DNA of 64,000 nucleotides from an uncultured Candidatus Peribacteria bacterium (GCA_964525485.1 CAZGHH010000001.1:12455-76454), one strand, 5' to 3'; positions 12,560 to 59,563 are shown, numbered from the stretch's first letter. A program made the numbers and translations. The notes: a model not told the origin generated them from the letters alone.

Positions 12560-12644
12560 TGGTGCCCAGAGAGAGACTCGAACTCTCATGAGTTGCCTCA
12601 CTAGCTCCTAAGGCTAGCGTGTCTACCAATTCCACCATCTGGGC
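12560..12644 (-). tRNA. tRNA-Leu (anticodon TAG), CCA encoded
   Basis: Minus-strand read GCCCAGATGGTGGAATTGGTAGACACGCTAGCCTTAGGAGCTAG...GTTCGAGTCTCTCTCTGGGCACCA. 7-bp acceptor stem, anticodon loop CTTAGGA, long variable arm, T-loop TTCGAGT. Confidence 0.9.
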
Positions 12645-23240: not shown

Positions 23241-23268
23241 GATCAGATTTAAATCAATATAAAAACAA

Positions 23269-25956
23269 ATGGCGGAATTCCTAAATAAATTCGTAGATCT
23301 GTTGGTAGAAAAACCTCTATTTATCCCATTATTAATCATTGGGATATGGGTTTTGTGTCATTGGACTTTAAAAGCGGTCAGGAGATGGGTCGCGTATAAT
23401 TCCGATAAACACAGAATCTTTTTCAAGATCACAATGCCACGCGAAGACAGTCAGAAGGACAAGGAAAAAGCGGTCGAAAAAGACTTCAGAGAAAAAATAG
23501 CAATGATGGCGCAGTTCTACAGAGCGCTGGAAGAAACAAAAGAGATGAATATATGGAACTCAATAAGAACAAAATTTCTTAAAGACAATATTTTTACGTT
23601 TGAATTGGTGGCAGAGCATAAGGAGGTTAATTTTTATGTATCAACGCCAAAGTATTACGCAGGAATAGTAGAGAAACAGATAACTTCATTTTATAACGAC
23701 GCAGAAGTGTTGCCGGTTCCGGCGTATGATCACTGTCCGGAAGGAAATAAAGTAAAAGGAATGTATGCTTTTCAGCATAGTCCGTATTGGTACCCGACAA
23801 AAACATACAAAAAAATTGAAAACGATCCATTAAACGATCTTGCGAATATATTCTCAAACATGCACGAAAAAGAGACCGGAATATATCAAGTAGTAATCCG
23901 TCCAAGAAGAGACAAATGGAACAAAAAAGCTGAAAAACAAGGCTCGGCACTATTTCAAGGAAAAACAGGAGGGAAATTAGCAGATATCCCCGTTATTGGT
24001 AAAATTTACGCACTTTTAACAGGTATAGTTTTTGGTTATGAAAAATATAAACAAAACGCGCCATCTCAAGATTATTCTACCGGATATGTGAGAATGCTTC
24101 AGACAAAAGAAGAAATCGCAAAAGCGGTTGGAGAAAAATCACAACAGGCCGGTTTTGATGCGGTGATTAGATTATTAGCGACCGCGGAAACAGAAAACAG
24201 AGCCGAAGAAATTGCCAACAACATGATAGTTGGTCTAAACGTATTTAAAGATCCTTCGATGAATTATTATCAAACCAGGAGATTGTTTTTCATAGATAAA
24301 TGGAATGACGCGATAATGTTATGGAATTTCAAAAAAAGATATCTGGTAGACAGAGGATGGTTTGATTTTTTAGATGAGAAAACATCATTGTTAAGTGAGG
24401 AAGAATTGGCATCACTTTTTCATTTTCCGAACTCTCATTATAATAAAGTTCCTACGATTAGATGGTTGTCATACAAAGTTTTGCCTGCTCCTACAAATCT
24501 AAAGAATGAGGGAATATTACTTGGATTAAATCTTTACAGAGGTAAAGAAAATCCGGTGCATTTCCCGGACAAAGATAGAGCCCGTCATCATTATGTGATT
24601 GGACAGACCGGTACTGGTAAATCTAGTTTCTTGTCATATATGGTTCGCCAGGATATTCAAAACGGAAAAGGCGTCTGTTTAATTGATCCACATGGAGATT
24701 TGGTTGATGACGTAATAAATTTTATTCCAAAAGAAAGAGCAAAAGACGTGATTATCTTTGATCCTTCAGACACAGAGCGTCCTATGGGACTCAATATTCT
24801 GGAAGCGACAACACCTGCTGAAATGGATATGGCGTCCAGTCAAGCTACCGAAATATTTATAAAACTTTTCGGTGATGAGATATTCGGACCACGTATCCAG
24901 CACTATTTCAGAAATGCATGTTTGACTCTTATGGAAGATCTTGAAGAAGGCGCGACGTTGATAGACGTCCCGAGGATTTTCGTGGATGAAGAATTTATGA
25001 AATATAAAGTTAAAAAAGTCACCAATCCGATAGTTAAATCATTTTGGAAAAATGAATATGCGAACACGGGAGCACGCGAAAGAGAAGAGATGATACCTTA
25101 TTTCAGTGCGAAATTCGGACCATTTATTACAAACTCGATCATGCGTAATACGATTGGCCAGACGAAATCCGCTTTTAATTTCAGAAAAGTGATGGATGAG
25201 GGAAAGATTCTTCTTGTTAAACTTTCAAAAGGTAAAATCGGAGATTTAAACACTCAATTACTCGGACTTGTAATAGTGGCTAGAATACAAATGGCCGCAA
25301 TGAGTCGTGCTGATATGGAAGAAAAAAACAGAAAAGAATTCTACTTATATGTGGATGAGTTTCAAAACTTTGCTACGGATTCATTCTGTTCAATCCTTTC
25401 AGAGGCCAGAAAATACAAACTAGCTTTGATAATGGCTCATCAATACATCAATCAGTTGGTTACAACTAAATTTGGAAGTACATCAACCCAGATCAGAGAT
25501 GCAGTATTTGGTAACGTCGGAACGATTAGTGCATTCAAAGTTGGCGCTGAAGATGCTGAGTATTTGGCTAAAGAATTTGCACCAGCATTAACTGAACAAG
25601 ATCTAATCGGAATAGCTAACTACAAACAATATATTAAATTAAACATCAATAACACAGCTTCGAGACCGTTTTCTATGAATACTATATACAATCAAGATGG
25701 TGCGAATGAAAAAGTCGGAAGTATCGTAAAAGAGTATTCGAGAATGAAACACGGTCGTAAAAAAGAATTCGTCGATCAAGAAATAGCGGCGAGAATAGGA
25801 ATAGATTATAATGATGAGCCTGTCGATATATCAAAACTTCCAAGTATGCCGGATCAGGCAGGAGGTGGAAATCCAATGGCTAGTATTCTGGCTCAAGCAA
25901 AAGCGGAAGCAGTACAACCTACTCAGCCTACCACGCCTCCTGCGGGTCAAACATAA
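23269..25956 (+). CDS. Membrane-anchored TraD/VirD4-like (FtsK/HerA-superfamily) P-loop ATPase
   Basis: 895 aa. N-terminal TM helix, Walker A HHYVIGQTGTGKSSF, Walker B FYLYVDEFQNF, and a Pro/Thr/Gln-rich C-terminal tail. The layout resembles type IV secretion coupling-protein-like ATPases. Confidence 0.65.
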   Translation: MAEFLNKFVDLLVEKPLFIPLLIIGIWVLCHWTLKAVRRWVAYNSDKHRIFFKITMPREDSQKDKEKAVEKDFREKIAMMAQFYRALEETKEMNIWNSIRTKFLKDNIFTFELVAEHKEVNFYVSTPKYYAGIVEKQITSFYNDAEVLPVPAYDHCPEGNKVKGMYAFQHSPYWYPTKTYKKIENDPLNDLANIFSNMHEKETGIYQVVIRPRRDKWNKKAEKQGSALFQGKTGGKLADIPVIGKIYALLTGIVFGYEKYKQNAPSQDYSTGYVRMLQTKEEIAKAVGEKSQQAGFDAVIRLLATAETENRAEEIANNMIVGLNVFKDPSMNYYQTRRLFFIDKWNDAIMLWNFKKRYLVDRGWFDFLDEKTSLLSEEELASLFHFPNSHYNKVPTIRWLSYKVLPAPTNLKNEGILLGLNLYRGKENPVHFPDKDRARHHYVIGQTGTGKSSFLSYMVRQDIQNGKGVCLIDPHGDLVDDVINFIPKERAKDVIIFDPSDTERPMGLNILEATTPAEMDMASSQATEIFIKLFGDEIFGPRIQHYFRNACLTLMEDLEEGATLIDVPRIFVDEEFMKYKVKKVTNPIVKSFWKNEYANTGAREREEMIPYFSAKFGPFITNSIMRNTIGQTKSAFNFRKVMDEGKILLVKLSKGKIGDLNTQLLGLVIVARIQMAAMSRADMEEKNRKEFYLYVDEFQNFATDSFCSILSEARKYKLALIMAHQYINQLVTTKFGSTSTQIRDAVFGNVGTISAFKVGAEDAEYLAKEFAPALTEQDLIGIANYKQYIKLNINNTASRPFSMNTIYNQDGANEKVGSIVKEYSRMKHGRKKEFVDQEIAARIGIDYNDEPVDISKLPSMPDQAGGGNPMASILAQAKAEAVQPTQPTTPPAGQT

Positions 25957-26570: not shown

Positions 26571-26647
26571 TGGTAACAGGGGGCGGAATTGAACCGCCGA
26601 CCTCGGGCTTATGAGTCCCGCGCTCTAACCAACTGAGCTACCCTGTC
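26571..26647 (-). tRNA. tRNA with CAT anticodon (elongator Met or lysidine-type Ile2; not distinguishable here), CCA encoded
   Basis: Minus-strand read GACAGGGTAGCTCAGTTGGTTAGAGCGCGGGACTCATAAGCCCGAGGTCGGCGGTTCAATTCCGCCCCCTGTTACCA. Paired 1:72 (G:U), anticodon loop CTCATAA, elongator-type D-loop. Confidence 0.85.
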
Positions 26648-27789: not shown

Positions 27790-27864
27790 TGGTTGCGGGG
27801 GGCGGATTCGAACCACCGACCTCAAGGTTATGAGCCTTGCGAGCTGCCTCTGCTCCACCCCGCG
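27790..27864 (-). tRNA. Initiator tRNA-fMet (CAT), CCA encoded
   Basis: Minus-strand read CGCGGGGTGGAGCAGAGGCAGCTCGCAAGGCTCATAACCTTGAGGTCGGTGGTTCGAATCCGCCCCCCGCAACCA. C1:A72 mismatch and the CGCGGGGTGGAGCAG start are typical of bacterial initiators. Confidence 0.88.
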
Positions 27865-33510: not shown

Positions 33511-33670
33511 ATTTATTTTTTGAATCAGTAAATGATACACCAAAAAGCTTTTTTCTTCAAGAATACCCCCCTAGATTCAGAAGATATGTCAAGTCTTAAT
33601 AAAAACGTCCCCAGAGTTGTAAAAACAGATGAATTCGTATAAACTCTACGGGACAATAAAGCTATTAATT

Positions 33671-35245
33671 ATGATTAAAAAAATATTTGTATTTTTTACG
33701 CTGTCTTTCATGTTATGTGCATCGCCGATGTTGAGCATGACTACAGTATTTGCTGACACAGAAAAAGTCGTAACGAACAACATTCAAAAGACATTACTGG
33801 AAGCGGTTATCAAAAGTGAAGACACGAATTCTGTCAAAGGAAACATGATATTCGACGCTTCCCAGAGTTACATGCCGGAAAATGAAAAAGAATATAAATT
33901 CGAATGGGACTTTGGAGATGGAAATAGAGACCAGGGAATCGAGACTCCTCATTCATATAATAAACCTGGAAGATATACAGTGTCGTTGCGTATTTACAAC
34001 GACAAAGAAGAATCTGTGACAAAAAAAGAAATTTTTATATACAACAAATCAATACTTGTACTTACAGATTCTCAAACAAACAAAGCACTCCTGGAAACAG
34101 TAAAGGCGTATGGCGAAGACAAAGGCGTATACATAAAAATTGTAGACAGTTTTGGAGCGAGCTCTGAATTTATATCGGAAGAAATCTTGTACAAAAAGCT
34201 GTCCGAATCACTTTCTCATCTTCAAAAATCATCGCAAGTTTTGACATGGACTAGAGAAAATTCCGGATTGAACGCTCTTTCTAGACTCGTAACCGAATCG
34301 CGATCAAAAGAGCCTATAAACCTTTCAAGTAAATCAATCATAGTCGTAACGAGCGATATAGAATCTTATTCAGGAAGAATAAAAAACCAGTTTTCACTAT
34401 TGAACCCAAAAAACATAGTTTTGGTCAACGAAGCCGGAGTATATCAAATTATAGATAATCTCACCTTCGAGGATTTAACTAAAAATTTAAAAGAAAAAGG
34501 GTATGAATACAAAATCATCACAGAAGCCAGTTTCAGACTAATGCCGTGGAACTTCTTGTCGTATTTTATATCCGTACTAATAGAAAAAGGGATTCCGGAC
34601 AATACGATTGCATTACTTTTACTGCTTCCGGTTATTGCGACGGTCATAACATTCATGAAGCAATTCGTTGGACTCACGACTATGGGGATATTCACTCCAA
34701 TGGTAATCACTCTCTCGTTTTTAGTAATAGGTGTTAACTTCGGACTATTGGTGCTTTTAATGATACTGACGGTAGGAACACTCGTGAGGCAACTATTAAA
34801 CAAAGCCAGACTTCTTTATATACCGAAAATGGCGATAGTTATAACATCGACAGCCATTATGCTGTTATTGATGCTTATTTTGAGCTTGTATTTGAATGTT
34901 TTTAACGCGACGTTCATATCATTGAGTATATTCCCGATGGTGATACTCAGTACTCTTGTGGAACGTTTTATCAGTATCAAAACCGAGCGCGGACTGAAAA
35001 CAGCAATAGTGCTGATGATTGAAACGATAATAGTATCAGTAGTTGCATATATTATAGTTGGGGGAAAAATGGATTTGGGAATAGTTGAATTTCAATTCGG
35101 ATGGATCAGGGATTTGATGTTAAACTTCCCGGAATTGGTATTTGCGCTAGTTATAGTTAATGTGCTGCTTGGTAGATGGACAGGTCTTAGAATGTTGGAA
35201 TTTATAAGATTCAAAGAAGTCATAAGACACATAGAAGAAGAATAA
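33671..35245 (+). CDS. Signal peptide + PKD domain + C-terminal 7-TM module (7TM type usually fused to inactive transglutaminases)
   Basis: ATG 33671 (MIKKIFVFFTLSF...) preferred over 33629. PKD signature FDASQS...YKFEWDFGDGN...HSYNKPGRYTVSLRI. C-terminal half has about 7 hydrophobic helices beginning LLLLPVIATVITFMKQFVGLTTMGIFTP. The protein ends ...RHIEEE. Confidence 0.6.
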   Translation: MIKKIFVFFTLSFMLCASPMLSMTTVFADTEKVVTNNIQKTLLEAVIKSEDTNSVKGNMIFDASQSYMPENEKEYKFEWDFGDGNRDQGIETPHSYNKPGRYTVSLRIYNDKEESVTKKEIFIYNKSILVLTDSQTNKALLETVKAYGEDKGVYIKIVDSFGASSEFISEEILYKKLSESLSHLQKSSQVLTWTRENSGLNALSRLVTESRSKEPINLSSKSIIVVTSDIESYSGRIKNQFSLLNPKNIVLVNEAGVYQIIDNLTFEDLTKNLKEKGYEYKIITEASFRLMPWNFLSYFISVLIEKGIPDNTIALLLLLPVIATVITFMKQFVGLTTMGIFTPMVITLSFLVIGVNFGLLVLLMILTVGTLVRQLLNKARLLYIPKMAIVITSTAIMLLLMLILSLYLNVFNATFISLSIFPMVILSTLVERFISIKTERGLKTAIVLMIETIIVSVVAYIIVGGKMDLGIVEFQFGWIRDLMLNFPELVFALVIVNVLLGRWTGLRMLEFIRFKEVIRHIEEE

Positions 35246-35254
35246 TAAAACAAT

Positions 35255-37627
35255 ATGAAACTTTTTAAGTCATACGGAATTTTAGGAATAAATGCGAGAA
35301 ATCTTCTTTATATTAAACCGCTAAATCCGGCAAAAGCTGTAAAATTAGCCGATGACAAAATTAAAACGAAAAAATTTCTTGAGACAAGGGGAATTCCTGT
35401 GCCCAAATTATTAAAAGTCATACAAAATCACGAAGAATTGGAGAAGTTAGACTTCAAGACATTACCAAATGCATTCGCATTAAAACCAAACAGTGGATTT
35501 GGAGGAGAAGGAATAATTCCGATCAAATCCAGAGAAGATAACGATTTTATATCGGTAAACGATAAGATCTATACAAAAGAAATGTTATACGATCAGATAT
35601 TGGATATTCTCGACGGAAGATTTTCTATATCAAATATATCTGACATAGCTTTTTTTGAACAATTGATAATTCCCGACAAATCATTGGGGAAGTATTCATA
35701 TTCAGGATTACCGGACATCCGTATAATTGTTTACAACATGGTTCCGGTGATGGCGATGCTAAGACTCCCGACAAAAGAATCAAATGGCAAGGCAAATTTG
35801 CATCAAGGGGCGTGCGGAGTCGGGCTGGACCTAGCTTCCGGGAAGGCAACATACATAGTCAAAAGTAATAAAATTATTGATGAAATAGAAGGTATCGGGA
35901 AGTTAGATGACTTAAAAGTGCCATTCTGGGATGAGATTTTATTGGCTGCATCAAAAATTCAGATGGCTACAAATCTAGGATATTTGGCGGTAGACATGGC
36001 TATAGATAAAAATTCAGGACCTTTGCTCTTGGAAATCAATGCTAGAGCAGGGCTAGGAGTTCAAAATGCGAACTTGGCACCATTAAGAAAAAGATTGGAA
36101 AGAATAGAAGGCGTGAAAGTCGGCAAGCCGGAAAAAGGAGTTCAGATAGCAAAAGACATGTTCGGTGCGGGATTTGAGAAAAAAGAACAAATCACGGTAA
36201 ATAAGAAAATAATCGGAAAAGAAGAAGACGTTGAAATTAACATAAAAAACGAATCTCATGTACTCAAAGCGATAATAGATCCATCTCACGAACGAAGTAC
36301 TTTGGATATCAAAATCGCTGAAAAATTAAACCTTACGAAATCTACGGAATATGACGACGAAAAATCCACATTAAAATTAAAATTCACACTAAAAGACAAG
36401 AAAATACAAACAGTCGTGGACGTAGAGAAAATTCAAAACGAAGATTTCAAAATGATAATAGGTGAAAGAGACCTAGAAGGTTTTTTGCTCGATATCAAGG
36501 CGAAATCAAGCACAACAAAAAAACATCAAAAAGCAGTAATTAAAAAAAGAAAGAAAAACCATTTTGAAATTGACGAAGAAATCACTGGAATAGATAACCA
36601 AATTAAATTACTTTTCCATTTGCGTCCGGTAAATCTAGAAGAAGAGAGACAAAAGTTTTTTAATAATTACACTTACAACCCGCAATTTATATATCCGGAA
36701 CTTAGGTTCAATTCAGACACTTTGAAGCAAAGATTGGCATTGATAGACAACTACGGAGGTATACTTGGAGAAATATTTGAAGCAAAAAAACAAGAAATAA
36801 TAAAAAAGATAAATTTACTGGATCACATAGGGGAAGAGTCATTCACTCAAAAATCAATTGAACTTTTTGGAAGCCCGGATGAGAACCTTATCAATGAATG
36901 CGAAAAATTATTAATAGAAAGCGACAAAAGCTACAAAAAAGATGCAGATAAAATAATGATATCCTCCGACGATGCAGCAAAAGCATTCAAAAAAGTATTC
37001 GAAGAATATGGACTCAAAAATTGGAACGTGAAAATCAAAGATGAAATGGTTACAGACTGTGTGGCGGGGAAAAACAACATGCTTTTCGTCAGAAAAAAAG
37101 CAACTTTCAGCGAGCATAAAATACAAAAGTTAATAATCCACGAGATCGAAACGCACATATTGACAGCTGAAAACGGAAAAAATCAACCTTTTGAAATATT
37201 TAATAGGGGACTGGCAAATTACTTGGAAACGCAAGAAGGCCTGGCTGTTTACAACGTCAACGAACAACTCGACAAAAATATCTCAAGAAGTTATAAGGCA
37301 TTGGCGTTGATTATAGCTATAGCAACGGCTCATCAAGCATCTTTTAATCAAGTTTTTGAGAAGATTTTATCGTTTGGGCTTTCAATAGAAGATTCATTTA
37401 GAATAACCTTGAAAGTTAAAAGAGGCCTAACGGATACATCATCAAAAGGTGCGTTCACAAAGGATATGATGTACTACAGTGGATATAAACAAATAAAAGA
37501 ATTTATAAAAAACGGAGGTGAAATGAGAGATTTATATATAGGAAAATTCAATTTAAAAGATTTGGATTTAATAAAAAAACTAGAAGGACTCACGGACCCG
37601 AAAATCTTACCAAAGTGGCTTAGATGA
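35255..37627 (+). CDS. Fusion protein: RimK-related ATP-grasp (alpha-L-glutamate-ligase-like) + DUF1704/QEGLA-motif (MATCAP-family) zinc carboxypeptidase-like domain
   Basis: 790 aa. N-terminal GILGINARNLLYIKPLNP, KPNSGFGGEGI, LLLEINARAGLG (ATP-grasp). C-terminal HEIETH at 37139..37156 and ETQEGLA at 37232..37246 (QEGLA-motif family). Starts 9 nt after the PKD-7TM gene. Confidence 0.7.
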   Translation: MKLFKSYGILGINARNLLYIKPLNPAKAVKLADDKIKTKKFLETRGIPVPKLLKVIQNHEELEKLDFKTLPNAFALKPNSGFGGEGIIPIKSREDNDFISVNDKIYTKEMLYDQILDILDGRFSISNISDIAFFEQLIIPDKSLGKYSYSGLPDIRIIVYNMVPVMAMLRLPTKESNGKANLHQGACGVGLDLASGKATYIVKSNKIIDEIEGIGKLDDLKVPFWDEILLAASKIQMATNLGYLAVDMAIDKNSGPLLLEINARAGLGVQNANLAPLRKRLERIEGVKVGKPEKGVQIAKDMFGAGFEKKEQITVNKKIIGKEEDVEINIKNESHVLKAIIDPSHERSTLDIKIAEKLNLTKSTEYDDEKSTLKLKFTLKDKKIQTVVDVEKIQNEDFKMIIGERDLEGFLLDIKAKSSTTKKHQKAVIKKRKKNHFEIDEEITGIDNQIKLLFHLRPVNLEEERQKFFNNYTYNPQFIYPELRFNSDTLKQRLALIDNYGGILGEIFEAKKQEIIKKINLLDHIGEESFTQKSIELFGSPDENLINECEKLLIESDKSYKKDADKIMISSDDAAKAFKKVFEEYGLKNWNVKIKDEMVTDCVAGKNNMLFVRKKATFSEHKIQKLIIHEIETHILTAENGKNQPFEIFNRGLANYLETQEGLAVYNVNEQLDKNISRSYKALALIIAIATAHQASFNQVFEKILSFGLSIEDSFRITLKVKRGLTDTSSKGAFTKDMMYYSGYKQIKEFIKNGGEMRDLYIGKFNLKDLDLIKKLEGLTDPKILPKWLR

Positions 37628-53908: not shown

Positions 53909-55276
53909 ATGACATTGAAGAAGACAAAAAAAACGAACATATCTATAGCGATCGTAGGCCGCCCAAACGTCGGAAAATCGACTCTATTTAACAGATTGAT
54001 AGGTGAACGTAAATCTGTAGTATTTCAGGAGGCCGGCACGACTAGAGACAGAGTAGAACACATCATAGAAATTGGCAAAATATCCGTAAAATTGGTAGAC
54101 ACGGGAGGACTAATGAGTGCAAAGAAAAAAAACAAATCGGAGATCCAAGAAAGCACAGAAAAACAAGCCAAAAAAGGAATAGAACTTGCTGATATAATAT
54201 TGTTTTTGGTCGATGCGAGTGAAGGCCTCACATCTGAAGATCAAGATATAGCGAAACTTTTGAGAGGCTCAAAGAGAAACGTAATATTGATAGCCAATAA
54301 ATGCGATAATCAGAAATTTGAACAAAATACATACGAATTTTTCAAGCTGGGAGTTGGGGAGCCACTGATGATGTCGGTTATTCATAAAATTGGAATTACT
54401 GAATTAGAAGAAGAAATCGAAAGACTAGTGAAGAAAATCAAAAAACCGAAGGTTAAAATAGAAAAGGAAAAGAATGATAAAAGTTTATACGTTTCAATTA
54501 TAGGCCGACCAAATGTCGGAAAATCGTCTTTATTAAACAGTTTATTAGGAGAAGAAAGAGTCGTGGTTTCAGATGTCCCAGGTACTACACGTGATTCTAC
54601 AGATACGGAAATAGAATATAAGGATAATAAAATAACAATAGTGGATACAGCCGGGATTCGGCGTCGCGGGAAGATAGAAAAAGGGATAGAGAATTTCAGT
54701 TTCATGCGCACGCAGGAGTCTATAGATAGATCAGATATAGTTGTGGTTTTAATGGATGCGACGGAAGTCGCAACAGCACAGGATTTACATGTAATTCAGA
54801 TGGCAACCGAAGCTAGGAAAGGCTTGATAATAGCTGTGAATAAAATGGACTTGGCCGACACCGAAGAAAAAGAACAGATCCAGAGAACCCTTGCTTACAA
54901 ATGTGATTTTATTCCGTGGGCGCCACTACATTTCGTATCAGCTAAAAACAAAAAAAATATATTTCAAATAATGGATTCCGTACTGGAAGTTGCCAAAAAT
55001 AGAGAGACTCAAATCCCGACATCTCGTCTCAACGCATTCATCCAAAAAACAATTCTAAAAAACGTTCCAGCGTCCACAGGAATCATTAAATGTAAATTTT
55101 TCTACGCAAACCAAGTCAACATCAATCCACCAAAATTTTATCTGTTTTTTAAAAACGCAAAAAGCCTGCACTTCTCATACAAGCGCTATATAGAAAACGA
55201 AATGCGCAAAGAGTTTGGGTTTTACGGCACTCCCATTAGCCTTACTTTCCGCGAAAACTCTTCAAAAGAGAAATAA
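53909..55276 (+). CDS. der: Ribosome-associated GTPase Der (EngA)
   Basis: Two tandem G domains (GRPNVGKSTLFN/DTGG/NKCD and GRPNVGKSSLLN/DTAG/NKMD) plus a KH-like C-terminus. ATG 53909 preferred over track start 53852. Confidence 0.93.
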   Translation: MTLKKTKKTNISIAIVGRPNVGKSTLFNRLIGERKSVVFQEAGTTRDRVEHIIEIGKISVKLVDTGGLMSAKKKNKSEIQESTEKQAKKGIELADIILFLVDASEGLTSEDQDIAKLLRGSKRNVILIANKCDNQKFEQNTYEFFKLGVGEPLMMSVIHKIGITELEEEIERLVKKIKKPKVKIEKEKNDKSLYVSIIGRPNVGKSSLLNSLLGEERVVVSDVPGTTRDSTDTEIEYKDNKITIVDTAGIRRRGKIEKGIENFSFMRTQESIDRSDIVVVLMDATEVATAQDLHVIQMATEARKGLIIAVNKMDLADTEEKEQIQRTLAYKCDFIPWAPLHFVSAKNKKNIFQIMDSVLEVAKNRETQIPTSRLNAFIQKTILKNVPASTGIIKCKFFYANQVNINPPKFYLFFKNAKSLHFSYKRYIENEMRKEFGFYGTPISLTFRENSSKEK

Positions 55277-56006
55277 AATTTTCTTCATTAAACTCCTCAC
55301 CATATTCCTTTAAATAAGCATCTCTAAATGCAACCCTTCTGTCATTTTCGTGTAACTTCAGAAGGCCTCTTTTTAATACAACATCTTCTCCTACGACTCC
55401 ATGCCGACTTAGTCTTCTTTTAATCTTTCTCAATTGATACTTACGAAAAACAGTTTCAAAGAAAGTACCAATAAAACTAACAAAAAGTATTTCAAAGAAC
55501 TTTCTAAAAATAGTGCTAAAAAAGAATTTCTCTCGATAGAAACTCATGTCTAGCTGGAGTGAAGAATTAGTCATTCCAATCAAATCTCTGGCCCAAAAAT
55601 TTCTTCCAATTATTTTCTCAGACACCTTCAGTTCATCGGACATTTTTCTATCCACGATCGGTCTCAACGTATAAACCCAGTAAGCGAAATAAAAATCCTT
55701 TCTCTTAGCCAGCGCAGTGAAATTCAAATTATCCTCATCAGCAAAAAAGCTAAGGCAAAATTTTCCGGCAGTATTCTCTCTATACGTCCTTACGCCAAAG
55801 ATTCGAAATAAAAAATTCATAAAAAACCTGGCTGTATAAAGCCGTCCATGCTTCGTTACGACGAATAAATCTATATCACTATTTTCATTCGAAACCCCCA
55901 TTGCGTAACTATTGCAAACAAAGCATCCACGCAAAAACGGGACTGAATTCATCAAAAAAGACCATTTTTTGACTTTCTCGAAACTTTTTACATCGATTTT
56001 AATCAT
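55242..56006 (-). CDS. Hypothetical protein with minimal polymerase-beta-type nucleotidyltransferase motif
   Basis: Motif NSYAMGVSNENSDIDLFVV. Start uncertain (56054, 56006 or 55952). The 3' end overlaps der convergently by 35 nt. Confidence 0.4.
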   Translation of the reverse strand: MIKIDVKSFEKVKKWSFLMNSVPFLRGCFVCNSYAMGVSNENSDIDLFVVTKHGRLYTARFFMNFLFRIFGVRTYRENTAGKFCLSFFADEDNLNFTALAKRKDFYFAYWVYTLRPIVDRKMSDELKVSEKIIGRNFWARDLIGMTNSSLQLDMSFYREKFFFSTIFRKFFEILFVSFIGTFFETVFRKYQLRKIKRRLSRHGVVGEDVVLKRGLLKLHENDRRVAFRDAYLKEYGEEFNEENFISLLKSFRGK

Positions 56007-56028
56007 TATTTTAAATATAATCTTCAAC

Positions 56029-58251
56029 GTGAACGAAACAAGCAAAAAAATCAAAACAGTGTTGAAAAATCTGCCGGATAAGCCCGGAGTCTACAAGATG
56101 ATAGATTCGGGAGGCAGAGTAATTTATATAGGTAAGGCTAAAAATCTAAAGAAACGCGTTAGCTCATATTTTCAAAAAACAAAAACTCTCTCGCCTCGCA
56201 CACAGAAATTAATAGAAAATGTCGAAGATATCTCATATACAGTTGTGAGTAGTGAGCTGGAAGCATTAATATTCGAATTAAATCTGATAAAAGAACTTCG
56301 CCCGAAGTACAATATCCTGCTAAAAGACGATAAAAACTTCGTATATATCAAGATCACGAAAGAAGATTTTCCTCGCATTCAAATAGTCCGCAAAATAGAC
56401 GATCGCAAGGCTACTTATTTCGGCCCAAAAACATCGAAGATGAAAGTGGAAAAAACATTCCAAATGCTGAAGAAGGTTTTCCATTTCAGACATTGCAACT
56501 TAGATATTGAAGAGTTAAACGAAAAAAATACCGCCAAAAATGCAAAGAACAATACCAGCACAGGCGTTATCAAATCAGTAAAAGTCACTCATGAAACGAT
56601 CAAGTATCCATGCCTCGACTATTACATTAAACGCTGTTCAGCTCCGTGCATAGCGAATGTTTCAAAAGAGGAATACAACGAAGCGATCGAAAATATTAAA
56701 AGATTTTTTGAAGGCCATCATGAAGAAATTATAAAGAATATCAAAAAGCAAATGATGGAGCTCGCAACCAACAAAGAGTTTGAAAAAGCAGCAAGACTTC
56801 GGGATACACTACAAAGCATAGAAAGCATTCTAGAAAGACAGAGCATCTCGGACCCAAACCAGGAAGACAAAGACATTTTTAACTATGTGATTGATTCCGG
56901 AAAAGCATTCTTCAATCTCTTCCAAATTCGTGAAGGAAAATTAATTAATCAAGAAAATTTTGCAGTACAATCAGCATCTGTGACGGACGAAGATGAGGAT
57001 GCGAAAGCAGAACTCTTAAGCGCATTCCTCGAACAGTATTATGAAAAAACTACAAACATCCCGAAAGAAATTCTGATCCCTCACGAGTTCCAAGAGCGGG
57101 ATGAATTAGAAGATTATTTATCAGAGGAAAAGGGCAAAAAAGTGAAGATTCTAATCCCGCAAAAAGGCCAAAAAAACAAACTTCTCGAGTTAAGCCACAA
57201 GAACGCAAAAATCTTCGCTGACCGAAATCGAGCGAGTTGGAGAGAAGAGGGCGACGACAAGAAAAACATACTCAAAGACCTACAAGCTCTCCTCAATCTC
57301 CCGAAAGAACCGAAGAGAATCGAATGTTACGACATTTCACATTTGAGTGGTACGGACACAGTCGCATCGATGGTCGTTTTTGAAAATGGTGTGCCAAAAA
57401 ATTCCGACTATCGCCGTTTCAAAATTCGCACAGTAGGAAAATCCATCAATGACATCAATGACTTCAAGTCAATCGCTGAAGTAATTAGCAGAAGAGCTAG
57501 TTACATAGGAGAAATCAAGGATAAATTTTCTATAAGAAAAGGCAAGAAAACAGATGAAAATCAACTAGGTAAAGAATTTAAAAATTACTACATCGTCACT
57601 ACTAAGGAAAAATCCAAAGAAAAAATTTGCGGCCAATTAATGTTAAAAAAATACGGTCAATACGAAAGGATTTCGCGATTCGAAATTGATTCTCAATACA
57701 GAGGAGCTCGACTGGGACAAAGACTTCTTAAGTACGCATTAAAACACGCGAAAACGAAGAGAATTTACATCAATTGCAAACTTTCACTGGCAAACTACTA
57801 CGAAGAAGTCGGCTTCCAGCAAATTCAAAAAATTCCAAAAGAAATAGAGGAATCTTTGAAAGGGATAGAATGCGTGACAGAGGCATCAGCCGTACAGGAT
57901 CAAATTAAAGCCGAAACAACTCTTTGGTATGCCTACGACCGCTCTCGCCTACGCGACAAATCTTTTGAGTCCAAACCTGATTTAATCATAATAGATGGAG
58001 GAAAAGGTCAGCTCTCAGCCGCAGTCGAAGTCCTCAAGAAATACAATCTCAAAACTTCAATTATCTCAATTGCAAAACGCGAAGAAGAGATATTTATACC
58101 CACAGTGAGAGGAGCAAAGCTGACATCCCAACAGATCGTACTCGAGAAAACAGACGAAATGTTAAAACTGATCCAACGCCTAAGAGATGAGGCTCACAGA
58201 TTCGCGATCACATTCAATAAAAACTTAAGAGAAAAAAGGTTAAAATCTTAA
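56029..58251 (+). CDS. uvrC: Excinuclease ABC subunit C with internal GNAT-like insertion; C-terminal HhH2 domain absent
   Basis: GIY-YIG (PGVYKMIDSGGRVIYIGKAKNLKKRVSSY), UVR domain (EFEKAARLRDTLQSIE), RNase-H-like endonuclease blocks (RIECYDISHLSG, IIIDGGKGQLSAA, RDEAHRFAI). GTG 56029 is preferred because ATG 55912 would overlap the divergent gene. Confidence 0.85.
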   Translation: MNETSKKIKTVLKNLPDKPGVYKMIDSGGRVIYIGKAKNLKKRVSSYFQKTKTLSPRTQKLIENVEDISYTVVSSELEALIFELNLIKELRPKYNILLKDDKNFVYIKITKEDFPRIQIVRKIDDRKATYFGPKTSKMKVEKTFQMLKKVFHFRHCNLDIEELNEKNTAKNAKNNTSTGVIKSVKVTHETIKYPCLDYYIKRCSAPCIANVSKEEYNEAIENIKRFFEGHHEEIIKNIKKQMMELATNKEFEKAARLRDTLQSIESILERQSISDPNQEDKDIFNYVIDSGKAFFNLFQIREGKLINQENFAVQSASVTDEDEDAKAELLSAFLEQYYEKTTNIPKEILIPHEFQERDELEDYLSEEKGKKVKILIPQKGQKNKLLELSHKNAKIFADRNRASWREEGDDKKNILKDLQALLNLPKEPKRIECYDISHLSGTDTVASMVVFENGVPKNSDYRRFKIRTVGKSINDINDFKSIAEVISRRASYIGEIKDKFSIRKGKKTDENQLGKEFKNYYIVTTKEKSKEKICGQLMLKKYGQYERISRFEIDSQYRGARLGQRLLKYALKHAKTKRIYINCKLSLANYYEEVGFQQIQKIPKEIEESLKGIECVTEASAVQDQIKAETTLWYAYDRSRLRDKSFESKPDLIIIDGGKGQLSAAVEVLKKYNLKTSIISIAKREEEIFIPTVRGAKLTSQQIVLEKTDEMLKLIQRLRDEAHRFAITFNKNLREKRLKS
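57500..57970 (+). other. GNAT (N-acetyltransferase)-like domain of about 155 aa, inserted inside the UvrC endonuclease domain
   Basis: Lies between ...AEVISRRASYIG and KPDLIIIDGGKGQ. E. coli UvrC has only about a dozen residues there. Contains GNAT motif-A-like RFEIDSQYRGARLGQRLLKYALKHAK (approx. 57695..57760) and LANYYEEVGFQQI. Confidence 0.6.
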
Positions 58252-58272
58252 GACATCATTTCCCGCACAGCT

Positions 58273-59475
58273 TCACTCCACCACAACCTTCTCCCTCCAC
58301 TTAAAAGCATCATCACACAACTCCTGCACACCTATATTCTCCTCAGCCTTCAAGACATCTTCGATTTTCGCCGACAATTCAGGTGATTTTGGGCTAAAAA
58401 GAGAACAAGTATCAGTACAAGGTAAAGCCGAAATATCATGCGTCCCTATTTTCTTCGATTCATTCACTATATCGACCTTGTTATTTCCAATAAGAGGTCT
58501 CAAAACAAGCATGTTGGTAGATTCGTCGACAGCAACTAAATTGTTCAGTGTCTGAGACGCAACCTGCGCAAAAGACTCGCCGGTCACCAGTGCCTTCGCC
58601 CCTATATATCTAGCCATCCTCTCCGCTATCCGAAACATCAATCTTCTATAAATCAAAATTCTCAAACCCGCTGGCACTTTTAAATTCAAAGAAATTTTCT
58701 TCTGAATCTCACCAAATGGAATAATAAACAGCTTCGTATCACTCTGAAATCGAGCCAAAATCTTCACCAAATCCTTCACATGTTCAGTTTCTTCTCTTTT
58801 TGTATAAGGCTGTCCTGAAAAATGAATAAAATGAACTTTCGCTCCGCGTTTCATCATACGAAAAGCCGCAACGGGGGAGTCAAAGCCTTTTGAAATCAAA
58901 GCCAAAACATTTCCGCCGGTCCCTGCCGGAAGCCCGCCAAGCCCTTTGAATTTTTCATAACACACATAAGCCTTCTCACCAAAAATTTCTACATTTACAA
59001 CTATATCCGCATCATCCATTTTCACTTTCAATCCAATATCGTTTTTCAACAAACACGCCCCGAACCTTTTCTCCGATTCGAGCCTTTCAAAAGGTAAATT
59101 CTCTTGAGATTTCTTCACCCTTACGCAAAAAGTCTTAAACCCACGCTTTGCAACTAACGAAGCCGGCCAAGTCTCTTTCAAAACCTCACAAATTTTATCG
59201 AAATCTAGCTCACATCTGTAATAAAAACCAAAATTCTCAATTCCGGGAACATTCATCATCATTTCATAAATCTGATTCTCATCATAACCAGCGGGCATCT
59301 TCACGACAAACCTACTCAACACCAAATCCACGCCCGATTTCACGCCAATCAATCGAAGTTTTCGGATCAAATCATTCCTCAAAGTTTTCTGGAAATGCTC
59401 TTTGTTCCCACCTTTCAATGCCAATTCACCGTAATGCAGAATCAGATACTTATCCATATGCACGCTTAAAAACAA
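58273..59475 (-). CDS. thiI: tRNA 4-thiouridine synthase ThiI (THUMP + PP-loop; no rhodanese domain)
   Basis: 400 aa. Ferredoxin-like/THUMP N-terminal half, PP-loop variant ALISKGFDSPVAAF, C-terminal CTDTC. Confidence 0.88.
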   Translation of the reverse strand: MFLSVHMDKYLILHYGELALKGGNKEHFQKTLRNDLIRKLRLIGVKSGVDLVLSRFVVKMPAGYDENQIYEMMMNVPGIENFGFYYRCELDFDKICEVLKETWPASLVAKRGFKTFCVRVKKSQENLPFERLESEKRFGACLLKNDIGLKVKMDDADIVVNVEIFGEKAYVCYEKFKGLGGLPAGTGGNVLALISKGFDSPVAAFRMMKRGAKVHFIHFSGQPYTKREETEHVKDLVKILARFQSDTKLFIIPFGEIQKKISLNLKVPAGLRILIYRRLMFRIAERMARYIGAKALVTGESFAQVASQTLNNLVAVDESTNMLVLRPLIGNNKVDIVNESKKIGTHDISALPCTDTCSLFSPKSPELSAKIEDVLKAEENIGVQELCDDAFKWREKVVVE

Positions 59476-59476
59476 A

Positions 59477-59563
59477 TGGTGCCCAGAGAGAGAATTGAAC
59501 TCTCACCTCCTTGCGAAGATGGGATTTTGAGTCCCACGCGTCTACCAATTCCGCCATCTGGGC
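59477..59563 (-). tRNA. tRNA-Leu (anticodon CAA), CCA encoded
   Basis: Minus-strand read GCCCAGATGGCGGAATTGGTAGACGCGTGGGACTCAAAATCCCATCTTCGCAAGGAGGTGAGAGTTCAATTCTCTCTCTGGGCACCA. Anticodon loop CTCAAAA, long variable arm. Confidence 0.9.

What the first reader, a model, noticed from the sequence alone, without database searches (positions are those of the whole stretch)
56029..58251. UvrC with a GNAT acetyltransferase-like domain inserted into its endonuclease half and no C-terminal (HhH)2 domain
Seen: all canonical UvrC blocks are present in order (GIY-YIG, UVR, IECYDISH, IDGGKGQL, DEAHRFA). Between ...ISRRASYIG and KPDLIIIDGGKGQ there are about 155 extra residues (approx. 57500..57970). They contain GNAT motif-A-like YRGARLGQRLLKYALKHAK and LANYYEEVGFQQI. 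The ORF stops 14 residues after DEAHRFAI. The convergent thiI gene ends 21 nt later, so there is no room for the (HhH)2 DNA-binding domain. Established: in E. coli UvrC the equivalent linker is about a dozen residues, and the C-terminal HhH2 is needed for 5' incision. Inference: this may be a repair nuclease coupled to an acetyl-CoA-dependent activity, such as regulatory acetylation or modification of a DNA/protein partner. Alternatively, the GNAT fold may be reused as a DNA- or partner-binding module that compensates for the lost HhH2.
Basis: partly seen in the sequence, partly recalled or inferred. Interest (0 to 1): 0.65.

Follow-up and report, generated by a model that had tools for sequence, protein, structure and literature searches.

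The report
UvrC repair nuclease carrying embedded GNAT domain
The DNA-repair nuclease UvrC of this candidate-phyla-radiation bacterium has an acetyl-CoA-type (GNAT) domain inserted in its second nuclease domain and lacks the usual C-terminal DNA-binding tail; this is a real trait shared by a whole clade, I found no paper describing it, and its function is untested.

Summary
The ORF 56029-58251 (+) is a complete UvrC with GIY-YIG, a 4-Cys cluster, UVR, RNase H1 and RNase H2 with an intact D435/D656/H723 triad. A 154-residue insert (aa 495-648, nt 57511-57972) sits where T. maritima UvrC has a 3-residue loop.

The insert passes the Pfam gathering scores of three GNAT families. It is predicted with high confidence as a GNAT fold and matches only GNATs in the PDB. 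The protein ends 17 residues after the catalytic His, so there is no (HhH)2 domain.

It is not a chimera. All 120 best homologue clusters carry the insert, and so do 71 of the 150 best 50%-identity representatives. Every named example is from Peregrinibacteria, Peribacteria, Gracilibacteria or "Patescibacteria group".

About half of the diverse full-length representatives keep (HhH)2 and lie basal in a rough tree. The insertion therefore came first and the tail was lost later.

The acetyl-CoA donor motifs are as conserved as in free-standing relatives, which are small amino-acid N-acetyltransferase-like GNATs. The acceptor loops are hypervariable. The embedded copies have gained a fixed basic patch.

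Related GNAT copies also occur at a second UvrC loop, in tandem, and inside leucyl-tRNA synthetases. No paper on this was found. Verdict: a new variant of a known kind whose function is inferred, not shown.

The parts
56029..58251 (+). uvrC ORF, 740 aa, GTG start, TAA stop
   Evidence: homologue P0001 has the same length
56083..56313 (+). GIY-YIG 3'-incision nuclease domain (aa 19-95). The catalytic-type residues Y22, Y33, R43, E78 and N95 are invariant or nearly so.
   Evidence: Pfam PF01541; 1yd6 match at 55% identity; invariant columns
56494..56649 (+). Four invariant cysteines C156, C195, C203, C207 (the Cys-rich / FeS motif region of UvrC)
   Evidence: invariant columns in A1; the Cys-rich motif with its FeS cluster is described in PMC10085695
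56722..56826 (+). UVR (UvrB-interacting) motif, aa 232-266
   Evidence: Pfam PF02151, 26.8 bits vs a cut-off of 21.5
56866..57219 (+). Central inactive RNase H-like domain (RNase H1), aa 280-397
   Evidence: Pfam PF22920, 117.9 bits
57283..57510 (+). N-terminal part of the RNase H2 5'-endonuclease domain, aa 419-494, with catalytic D435 (nt 57331-57333)
   Evidence: Pfam PF08459 first stretch; alignment to 2nrt residues 5-80
57511..57972 (+). Inserted GNAT-fold domain, aa 495-648
   Evidence: Pfam GNAT families above gathering score. AF2 pLDDT is about 87-94 over the core. All top 50 Foldseek PDB matches are GNAT acetyltransferases, with TM 0.5-0.65.
57700..57717 (+). GNAT motif A pyrophosphate-binding loop, R558-G559-A560-R561-L562-G563 (family consensus RGxKLG)
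   Evidence: R558 97%, G559 92%, G563 97% conserved in 121 embedded copies; aligned to the RGKQLG loop of GNA1 3t90
57796..57816 (+). GNAT motif B, Y590-Y591-E-E-V-G595-F596. Y591 aligns with the Tyr in the FYEKCG motif of GNA1.
57859..57918 (+). Hypervariable, low-confidence beta6-beta7 loop of the GNAT (aa 611-630)
   Evidence: pLDDT below 50 at 617-625; 11% median identity
57973..58248 (+). C-terminal part of the RNase H2 domain, aa 649-740, with catalytic D656 (nt 57994-57996) and H723 (nt 58195-58197). The protein ends 17 aa after H723, so there is no (HhH)2.
58252..58272 (.). 21-nt spacer to the convergent thiI gene (58273-59475, minus strand)
   Evidence: thiI lies convergently downstream of uvrC in relatives too, with a Pro_dh gene in between

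Best explanation
What it is. This is a genuine, vertically inherited UvrC variant of the Peregrinibacteria/Peribacteria/Gracilibacteria branch of Patescibacteria. A small GNAT domain was inserted into a naturally length-variable surface loop of the RNase H2 (5'-incision) domain. That loop lies between the helix ending ...RRxxY and the strand PDLIIIDGG that carries the second catalytic Asp. The GNAT derives from roughly 145-aa GNATs that resemble amino-acid N-acetyltransferases (NAGS/ArsN2-like).

How it most likely works (inferred). Both nuclease active sites and the UvrB-binding motif are intact, so the protein is expected still to make the dual incision. The embedded GNAT most likely still binds acetyl-CoA and acts in cis on the incision complex. 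It could do so either by transferring acetyl to a lysine of UvrC or UvrB, or by acetyl-CoA-dependent docking. The host protein, rather than the GNAT's own degenerate acceptor loops, would present the target. A conserved basic patch acquired after embedding would give extra contact with DNA near the 5' nuclease. That contact would have made the (HhH)2 tail dispensable and allowed its later loss in the crown clade that holds this window.

Shown versus inferred. Shown: the architecture, the fold prediction, motif conservation, distribution, and the order of events in a rough tree. Inferred: acetyl-CoA binding, action in cis, and DNA contact.
For: Architecture and insertion point.

GNAT fold.

Clade-wide distribution. 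All 120 best 90%-identity clusters have an Asp-to-Asp spacing of 185-334 residues, against 62 in T. maritima, and 114 of them carry precomputed GNAT Pfam hits. Of the 150 best 50%-identity representatives, 71 are UvrC.

Origin. Free-standing relatives of about 145 aa share the fold outline, the YLxC strand and the FYxxxGF motif. Their best NCBIfam matches are PRK07922/PRK07757 amino-acid N-acetyltransferase and ArsN2, all below the curated cut-offs.

Donor site kept. R558, G563, Y590, Y591, G595 and F596 are conserved at 97-100% in embedded copies and 83-100% in free-standing ones. C583 is at 94% against 55%.

Acceptor side not kept. The alpha1-alpha2 region varies in length and is shortened in the window's subclade. 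The beta6-beta7 loop has 11% median identity and low pLDDT.

Basic patch gained. K/R frequencies in embedded vs free-standing copies are 100 vs 59% at 504, 92 vs 42% at 507, 97 vs 36% at 575, 98 vs 56% at 577 and 100 vs 17% at 578. Median net charge is +12 vs +4.

Order of events. Forms with both insert and (HhH)2 are basal and paraphyletic, and the crown clade lacks the tail.

Purifying selection. In close relatives at 79-98% overall identity, the GNAT is as conserved as the core, at 81-96%.

Loss of the tail is tolerable. D. radiodurans UvrC without (HhH)2 retains dual incision and binds DNA with a Kd of 40 nM (PMC10085695).
Against: No biochemical evidence exists. Acetyl-CoA binding, catalysis and DNA contact are all inferred from sequence.

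The tool gives no inter-domain confidence or coordinates. The position of the GNAT relative to the active site or the DNA path is therefore unknown, and the full-length pTM is only 0.56.

Some members have lost motif A but keep the insert: P0062, P0104, P0116 and the Peribacteria protein in L002, which has no Pfam GNAT hit. Acetyl-CoA binding is therefore not universally required.

The insert's net charge does not differ significantly between forms with and without the tail (p=0.10). The higher Lys/Arg fixation in tail-less forms may reflect denser sampling of one clade.

Related GNATs inside LeuRS show that this module is not tied to NER. That fits an autonomous passenger enzyme as well.

No conserved acidic general base was identified.
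Confidence: 0.45

Rival explanations
1. Purely structural module. The GNAT fold is a non-catalytic DNA- or partner-binding domain, acetyl-CoA is irrelevant, and motif conservation reflects only fold stability. It substitutes for (HhH)2.
For: The insert has a high positive charge and Lys/Arg residues that are fixed only in embedded copies. The insert is retained with degenerate motifs A and B in L002, P0062, P0104 and P0116. The acceptor loops are hypervariable. Tail-less forms show more fixed basic residues.
Against: The donor-site glycines and the Tyr that aligns with the GNA1 Tyr are conserved at 97-98%, as well as in presumably active free-standing relatives. A near-invariant Cys at the end of beta5 is more conserved than in free-standing GNATs (94 vs 55%). 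The GNAT coexists with (HhH)2 in at least 20 diverse representatives, so it did not originate as a substitute.
Confidence: 0.2
2. Autonomous passenger enzyme. The insert is an amino-acid or small-molecule N-acetyltransferase that happens to be encoded inside a permissive loop of UvrC, as a form of gene fusion in a streamlined genome. It has no functional link to excision repair.
For: The nearest relatives are free-standing amino-acid-N-acetyltransferase-like GNATs. The insertion sites are loops that vary in length in ordinary UvrCs (Loop1 in PMC10085695). Related GNATs are embedded in LeuRS at three positions. Patescibacteria LeuRS homologues also carry Pfam hits to NUDIX, alpha/beta-hydrolase, Ham1 and Y1 transposase domains, which suggests a general tolerance for embedded enzymes.
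Against: The acceptor-binding elements, alpha1-alpha2 and the beta6-beta7 loop, are the least conserved parts. That is unexpected for an enzyme with a fixed small-molecule substrate. Embedded copies have host-specific fixed basic residues that are absent from free-standing relatives. The insert has been held at the same UvrC site across proteins only 45-50% identical.
Confidence: 0.2
3. Nucleic-acid or lesion acetyltransferase. The host protein (UvrC on DNA, LeuRS on tRNA) delivers the GNAT to a nucleic-acid substrate, which is then acetylated.
For: Both host proteins bind nucleic acids. The GNAT lacks a conserved acceptor pocket of its own. From my own knowledge, not tested here: TmcA/NAT10 are GNATs joined to nucleic-acid-binding modules that make N4-acetylcytidine.
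Against: No similarity to TmcA/NAT10-type GNATs was seen; the top matches are small-molecule or protein acetyltransferases. No precedent for DNA acetylation in excision repair is known to me. LeuRS-GNAT is rare, with only two clusters found among the best 120 homologues.
Confidence: 0.07
4. Artefact. The insert results from an assembly chimera, a frameshift or a mis-called ORF.
For: None was found. Read support cannot be checked with these tools.
Against: The ORF is continuous and in frame, and base composition shows no break across the borders. The same architecture occurs in more than 130 independent clusters from four data sources and on contigs up to 1.2 Mb, with conserved gene order.
Confidence: 0.01

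Closest known systems
Canonical bacterial UvrC (E. coli, T. maritima, B. caldotenax, D. radiodurans; PDB 1YD6, 2NRT, 3C65, 8B0Q)
   Same: The domain order is the same: GIY-YIG, 4-Cys region, UVR, RNase H1 and RNase H2. The catalytic residues are the same in both nucleases (GIY-YIG Y/Y/R/E/N and the DDH triad). NCBIfam TIGR00194 scores above its cut-off.
   Different: A 154-aa GNAT domain is inserted where T. maritima has a 3-residue loop. The C-terminal (HhH)2 domain is absent.
D. radiodurans / H. pylori UvrC with short species-specific insertions in RNase H2 Loop1, between beta6 and beta7 (PMC10085695)
   Same: Surface loops of the RNase H2 domain tolerate lineage-specific insertions. One relative here, the fragment P0208, has a second GNAT in that same beta6-beta7 loop.
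   Different: The known insertions are unstructured loops of 13-17 residues. Here the insertion is a folded enzyme-type domain of about 150 residues, and in the window it sits at a different loop.
Engineered UvrC lacking (HhH)2 (D. radiodurans UvrC-delta(HhH)2, PMC10085695) and Cho
   Same: These are UvrC-type nucleases that work without the (HhH)2 tail. The D. radiodurans truncation keeps dual incision with a weakened 5' cut.
   Different: Here the loss is natural and fixed in a large clade, and it is accompanied by an embedded GNAT. From my own knowledge: Cho lacks the whole C-terminal half. The window protein matches the Cho model only over residues 6-165, at 55 bits against a cut-off of 367.
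Small amino-acid N-acetyltransferase-like GNATs (NCBIfam PRK07922/PRK07757, the NAT domain of N-acetylglutamate synthase, ArsN2, RimI)
   Same: The fold is the same, as are motif A (R-G-x-x-L/I-G) and motif B (F/Y-Y-x-x-x-G-F). The outline is short, about 145 aa. These families give the best family-level matches to the free-standing relatives and weak matches to the insert.
   Different: All scores are far below the curated cut-offs, so this is not an equivalog. The embedded copies have extra fixed Lys/Arg, variable acceptor loops and no free termini.
GNAT domains that act as acetyl-CoA-dependent regulators or are joined to nucleic-acid enzymes (PanZ/PanM; TmcA/NAT10) - recalled from my own knowledge as analogies
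   Same: In each case a GNAT fold uses acetyl-CoA binding to control a partner protein, or is delivered to its substrate by a fused nucleic-acid-binding module.
   Different: No specific sequence relationship was found. There is only a faint PanZ hit in one free-standing relative and a faint PanM hit in another. None of these known cases is an insertion inside a nuclease domain.

Membership tests
UvrC (excinuclease ABC subunit C) | N-terminal GIY-YIG nuclease with catalytic Tyr/Tyr/Arg/Glu/Asn | tested here: met
   Pfam PF01541 at 19-95. Y33, R43, E78 and N95 are invariant and Y22 is nearly invariant across 109 sequences. There is 55% identity to 1yd6.
UvrC (excinuclease ABC subunit C) | UVR motif for UvrB binding and the Cys-rich motif | tested here: met
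   Pfam UVR at 232-266. C156, C195, C203 and C207 are invariant.
UvrC (excinuclease ABC subunit C) | C-terminal RNase H-like endonuclease with a DDH triad | tested here: met
   PF08459 scores 168 bits in two stretches. D435, D656 and H723 are invariant. D435 and H723 lie in the blocks aligned to 2nrt; D656 is assigned from the DGGKGQ block.
UvrC (excinuclease ABC subunit C) | [quoted passage not shown] | tested here: not met
   The ORF ends 17 aa after H723 and there is no HHH Pfam hit. A profile of (HhH)2 tails from relatives finds nothing in any window ORF of at least 80 aa (best E 0.14). No HhH gene lies next to uvrC in relatives.
UvrC (excinuclease ABC subunit C) | Whole-protein score above the curated equivalog cut-off | tested here: met
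   TIGR00194 scores 515.9 vs 285.45 and NF001824 scores 469.5 vs 451.
UvrC (excinuclease ABC subunit C) | Dual incision with UvrA/UvrB | not testable with these tools
   This requires biochemistry. uvrA and uvrB were not seen among the ten ORFs annotated, nine of which are the largest other ORFs in the 64-kb window.
GNAT acetyltransferase superfamily | Sequence match above the Pfam gathering score | tested here: met
   Acetyltransf_10 scores 31.0 vs 23.6, Acetyltransf_7 scores 28.1 vs 27, and Acetyltransf_1 scores 27.2 vs 20.7.
GNAT acetyltransferase superfamily | GNAT fold (mixed sheet beta1-beta7 with helices alpha1-alpha4) | tested here: met
   The AF2 model of the insert has pLDDT 84 and pTM 0.77, with the element order b1-a1-b2-b3-b4-a3-b5-a4-b6-helix-b7. 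Alpha2 is missing. The top 50 PDB matches are all GNATs at probability 1.00 and TM 0.5-0.65.
GNAT acetyltransferase superfamily | Motif A pyrophosphate loop, Q/R-x-x-G-x-G/A | tested here: inconclusive
   The window has R558-G-A-R-L-G563: positions 1 and 6 fit, but position 4 is Arg rather than Gly. The same R-G-x-x-L-G variant occurs in GNA1 (3t90, RGKQLG). It is conserved in about 106-115 of 121 copies.
GNAT acetyltransferase superfamily | Acetyl-CoA binding and acetyl transfer | not testable with these tools
   There is only indirect evidence: conservation of donor-site residues and of Y591, which aligns with the Tyr of the FYEKCG motif.
Amino-acid N-acetyltransferase / ArsN2 equivalogs (NCBIfam) | Score above the curated cut-off | tested here: not met
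   The window insert scores 18.1 vs 125 for ArsN2 and 16.6 vs 86.4 for rimI. The best free-standing relative scores 59.7 vs 180 for PRK07922.

The most novel reading that the evidence does not exclude
A portable small-GNAT module has been inserted repeatedly into nucleic-acid-handling housekeeping enzymes of Patescibacteria. The cases found are UvrC loop 1, UvrC beta6-beta7 loop, a tandem pair in UvrC, and three positions in LeuRS. The module would use the host protein as its substrate-binding platform. Acetyl-CoA level, or acetyl transfer to the bound nucleic acid or partner protein, would then directly gate DNA incision and tRNA charging. This would be a previously unrecognised metabolic control layer on excision repair in ultra-small bacteria.
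Probability: 0.12. Interest if true: 0.85.

Novelty: new variant of a known kind. Interest (0 to 1): 0.6.

Why it matters
UvrC has one of the most constant domain architectures in bacteria, and the way its 5' nuclease is positioned and switched on is still an open question (PMC10085695).

This is a natural variant fixed across a large uncultured lineage. It embeds an acetyl-CoA-type domain in the 5' nuclease and, in a large crown clade, dispenses with the (HhH)2 tail. That gives a ready-made experiment on three points: what the tail is really needed for, whether repair can be coupled to acetyl-CoA, and how folded enzyme domains become inserted into loops of essential proteins in streamlined genomes.

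There is also an annotation issue. These proteins are named either plain "UvrC" or, in at least one case, "GNAT family N-acetyltransferase" (P0109).

Tried and rejected
- Searching the 5.8-billion-protein index with the insert plus short flanks found nothing. This was a limit of the word index, not true absence, because the full-length query and the profile search found many relatives.
- The search for related loci with the insert alignment A2 failed because no stretch was conserved enough. Only L001 and L002 carry the insert. The others served as outgroups.
- The first tree attempt timed out. The tree used is a quick neighbour-joining tree on Kimura-corrected identities without support values, so the branching order is indicative only.
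- My first reading that the LeuRS protein P0129 matched the UvrC-insert profile far better than free-standing GNATs was wrong. Its 117 bits are the sum of two copies of 55 and 60 bits. BLASTP shows them only slightly closer to UvrC inserts than to free-standing GNATs.
- One residue-frequency table was off by two positions because hmmalign trimmed the sequence. It was redone.
- A translation request in the wrong frame failed.
- A test of whether the insert is more basic in tail-less forms was not significant for net charge.
- A TGA-recoding explanation for the short C-terminus was considered and rejected: the stop is TAA and TGA is used as a stop in the window.
- A split-gene explanation was also rejected: nothing resembling (HhH)2 was found in the window or beside uvrC in relatives.
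- Five literature searches found no description of this architecture. The library does not cover most subscription journals.
Full report
**1. The observation**

The ORF at 56029-58251 (+) has a GTG start and a TAA stop and encodes 740 aa. NCBIfam names it UvrC above the curated cut-off (TIGR00194, 515.9 vs 285 bits).

Pfam finds these domains:
- GIY-YIG at 19-95
- UVR at 232-266
- the central UvrC_RNaseH domain at 280-397
- the catalytic UvrC_RNaseH_dom split into two stretches
- three GNAT families above their gathering scores at about 512-601: Acetyltransf_10 (31.0 vs 23.6), Acetyltransf_7 (28.1 vs 27) and Acetyltransf_1 (27.2 vs 20.7)

Against solved structures, the alignment to T. maritima UvrC (2nrt) runs to chain residue 80 (query 491) and resumes at chain residue 84 (query 649). 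So 154 residues (aa 495-648, nt 57511-57972) replace a three-residue loop. That loop lies between the helix ending ...ISRRASY and the strand KPDLIIIDGG, which bears the second catalytic Asp.

The protein stops 17 residues after the catalytic His723. thiI converges 21 nt downstream. The stop is TAA and the window uses TGA as a stop, so recoding does not extend the protein.

**2. It is real and clade-wide**

A full-length search returned more than 7900 UvrC relatives. All of the best 120 clusters (45-98% identity) have the long Asp-to-Asp spacing: 185-334 residues against 62 in T. maritima. Of these, 114 carry precomputed GNAT Pfam hits.

A profile of the insert alone was run against 1.84 billion 50%-identity representatives. 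It found 146 proteins at E<=1e-10. Of the 150 best, 71 are UvrC or UvrC fragments with the match at about residues 480-650.

Every source name that identifies an organism says Candidatus Peregrinibacteria, Candidatus Gracilibacteria or Patescibacteria group. One GTDB-species genome with the insert is a Candidatus Peribacteria MAG (L002).

The gene order der / unknown gene / uvrC / (proline dehydrogenase) / thiI / obg is kept in relatives on contigs of 0.76 and 1.2 Mb. This excludes an assembly chimera.

**3. Fold**

AlphaFold2 on a 109-sequence alignment gave a mean pLDDT of 83.6, with about 87-94 over the core of the insert. The insert alone gave pLDDT 84 and pTM 0.77.

The element order is b1-a1-b2-b3-b4-a3-b5-a4-b6-helix-b7. 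This is a GNAT fold with a short alpha1, no alpha2, and a disordered b6-b7 loop. All 50 best Foldseek PDB matches to the insert model are GNAT acetyltransferases, including streptothricin acetyltransferase, SpeG, RimI and PA2271, with TM 0.5-0.65. The full-length model matches the UvrC C-terminal halves 8b0q and 2nrt and the GIY-YIG domain 1yd6 first. No coordinates or inter-domain error are available, so the placement of the GNAT relative to the active site is unknown.

**4. The (HhH)2 tail**

Within the window's closest 120 clusters, only P0112 and P0115 keep about 69 residues after the catalytic His. Among the more diverse representatives, about half of the full-length GNAT-bearing UvrCs keep such a tail with an hxGhG motif. 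Pfam confirms HHH_5/HHH_2 in P0125 (KKR06977.1, Candidatus Peregrinibacteria), P0124, P0174, P0220 and the Peribacteria protein.

In a quick neighbour-joining tree rooted on ordinary UvrCs, the forms with both insert and tail make up a basal, paraphyletic grade. A few tail-less forms are interspersed in that grade. The window lies in a large crown clade that uniformly lacks the tail. The tree has no support values.

The insertion therefore predates the loss of the tail, and the tail may have been lost more than once. No (HhH)2-like sequence is present in any window ORF or next to uvrC in relatives. The rest of the genome could not be searched.

Published work shows that D. radiodurans UvrC lacking (HhH)2 still makes both cuts. 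Its 5' cut is partly impaired and it binds DNA with a Kd of 40 nM (PMC10085695).

**5. What the GNAT looks like functionally**

Across 121 embedded copies the donor-site residues are highly conserved:
- motif A: R558 97%, G559 92%, G563 97%
- Y580 100%
- Y590 and Y591 98% each
- G595 and F596 100% each

Free-standing relatives show the same or lower levels. Y591 aligns with the Tyr of the FYEKCG motif of glucosamine-6-phosphate N-acetyltransferase 3t90. From my own knowledge, that Tyr is the general acid in GNA1-type enzymes. A Cys at the end of beta5 (C583) is 94% conserved in embedded copies against 55% in free-standing ones.

The parts that usually bind the acceptor are the least conserved. 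The alpha1-alpha2 region varies in length and is shortened in the window's subclade. The b6-b7 loop has 11% median identity.

Overall the GNAT evolves faster than the UvrC core, with a median of 31% identity to the window against 55-58%. In close relatives it is as conserved as the core, at 81-96%, which indicates purifying selection.

A few members have lost motif A while keeping the insert: P0062, P0104, P0116 and the Peribacteria protein, which gives no Pfam GNAT hit.

**6. A basic patch specific to embedded copies**

Compared with 60 free-standing relatives of 120-180 aa, embedded copies have Lys/Arg nearly fixed at several positions:

| Position | Embedded | Free-standing |
|---|---|---|
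| 504 | 100% | 59% |
| 507 | 92% | 42% |
| 508 | 82% | 29% |
| 565 | 81% | 28% |
| 575 | 97% | 36% |
| 577 | 98% | 56% |
| 578 | 100% | 17% |

Median net charge is +12 for embedded copies and +4 for free-standing ones.

From the general GNAT topology, I infer that the end of beta1, the start of alpha1, the end of alpha3 and the start of beta5 lie on the edge of the sheet opposite the acetyl-CoA pyrophosphate loop. These residues could then form one surface away from the donor site.

Tail-less forms have these positions more often basic than tail-bearing forms, for example 72 vs 14% at 565 and 94 vs 50% at 577. However, the net charge difference is not significant (+12 vs +10, p=0.10), and the two groups are unevenly sampled.

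**7. Origin and other hosts**

The best non-UvrC matches are GNATs of about 140-147 aa. They have the same outline: short alpha1, a YLxC strand, FYxxxGF, and LPxxL. Their best NCBIfam matches are amino-acid N-acetyltransferase models (PRK07922, PRK07757), ArsN2 and RimI, all far below the cut-offs.

The same kind of GNAT also occurs in these places:
- as a second, tandem copy in one UvrC (P0128, copies at 511-651 and 668-755)
- in the beta6-beta7 loop of RNase H2 in the fragment P0208, which also shows the end of a site-1 insert and keeps the tail; this is the loop called Loop1 in D. radiodurans UvrC
- inside leucyl-tRNA synthetases: two copies flanking the editing domain in P0129 and its 69%-identical relative P0274, and one copy after the anticodon-binding domain in P0211

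The LeuRS copies are 31-44% identical to UvrC inserts, only slightly closer than to free-standing GNATs. The nearest named LeuRS relatives are from the Patescibacteria group.

Site 1 is length-variable in ordinary UvrCs. The linker is about 5-25 residues, and a Chloroflexota UvrC has about 55 extra, apparently low-complexity residues there.

**8. Interpretation**

The anatomy is shown. The mechanism is inferred.

Best-supported reading (confidence 0.45). The GNAT is an acetyl-CoA-binding accessory domain that acts in cis on the incision complex, either by acetyl transfer to a lysine of UvrC or UvrB or by acetyl-CoA-dependent docking. Its acquired basic surface adds DNA contact near the 5' nuclease, and this later allowed loss of the (HhH)2 tail.

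Rivals:
- a purely structural DNA-binding module (0.2)
- an autonomous passenger enzyme in a permissive loop (0.2)
- a nucleic-acid or lesion acetyltransferase delivered by its host (0.07)
- an artefact (0.01)

The data do not separate the first three. Retained donor and Tyr residues argue for acetyl-CoA chemistry. Degenerate members and the basic patch argue for a structural role. The LeuRS cases and the variable insertion sites argue for a passenger or portable module.

**9. Novelty**

Five full-text searches gave no paper that describes a GNAT inside UvrC or UvrC architecture in these lineages. Databases already hold the domain hits, and the proteins are named plain UvrC or, once, GNAT family N-acetyltransferase (P0109).

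It is a member of UvrC by every tested criterion except the (HhH)2 tail. The insert is a member of the GNAT superfamily by sequence and fold, but not of any curated GNAT equivalog.

I rate it a new variant of a known kind, with interest 0.6. It would surprise a repair specialist and offers a natural handle on how the 5' nuclease is positioned and regulated. Its function rests on inference.

Noticed in passing
P0129, P0274 (about 1093-1105 aa) and P0211 (599-aa fragment); not in the window: These leucyl-tRNA synthetases carry in-frame GNAT inserts of the same small-GNAT subfamily. P0129 has two copies flanking the CP1 editing domain (236-362 and 518-647). P0211 has one after the anticodon-binding domain (360-507). 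They are 31-44% identical to UvrC inserts.
   Followed up: partly
P0276, P0291, P0294, P0299, P0301, P0306, P0312, P0316, P0359, P0361, P0367, P0370 and others: Many over-long LeuRS homologues, several named Patescibacteria group, carry precomputed Pfam hits to unrelated enzyme domains: NUDIX PF00293, alpha/beta-hydrolases PF06821/PF12697/PF00561, Ham1 PF01725, and IS200-type Y1 transposase PF01797. This suggests frequent embedding of foreign domains in this enzyme.
   Followed up: no
P0128 (863 aa) and P0208 (364-aa fragment): P0128 is a UvrC with two tandem GNAT copies at site 1. P0208 has a GNAT in the beta6-beta7 loop of RNase H2 (the Loop1 position of D. radiodurans UvrC) in addition to the end of a site-1 insert, and it keeps the HhH tail.
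   Followed up: partly
L002:2980-5247 (+), Candidatus Peribacteria MAG HK-STAS-PATE-13: This 755-aa UvrC has an insert at the same site, but it gives no Pfam GNAT hit and has degenerate motifs A and B. It retains the (HhH)2 tail. It is an example of the insert being kept without the acetyl-CoA motifs.
   Followed up: partly
L005:3001-4764, Chloroflexota MAG: This otherwise ordinary UvrC has about 55 extra, apparently low-complexity residues (rich in Ala/Gly/Glu/Thr) at the same loop where the GNAT sits in the window. That loop therefore seems generally permissive.
   Followed up: no
window 55242-56054 (-): This ORF of about 270 aa is divergent from uvrC and has no Pfam match. It contains a DIDLFVV motif reminiscent of nucleotidyltransferases. 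An ORF with a similar sequence sits beside uvrC in L001, and an un-annotated gene of similar size and position is present in L081 and L083. Its longest reading overlaps the uvrC start by 26 nt, so it probably starts at a downstream codon.
   Followed up: partly
window 33623-35242 (+) and 35249-37624 (+): A protein with a PKD domain and a 7TM region of the type usually fused to inactive transglutaminases is followed directly by a fusion of a sugar-transfer-associated ATP-grasp domain with a MATCAP-type carboxypeptidase domain.
   Followed up: no
window 23263-25953 (+); L081:3202-3855 and L083:2883-3821 (-): The window has a TrwB/VirD4-like type IV coupling protein. In relatives, a T4SS pilin gene lies a few kb upstream of uvrC.
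   Followed up: no
window 59477-59563 (-): A tRNA-Leu(CAA) gene lies between thiI and obg. Three further tRNA genes are at 12560-12644 (Leu-TAG), 26571-26647 and 27790-27864 (both Met-CAT). The window contains no rRNA or other Rfam family.
   Followed up: yes
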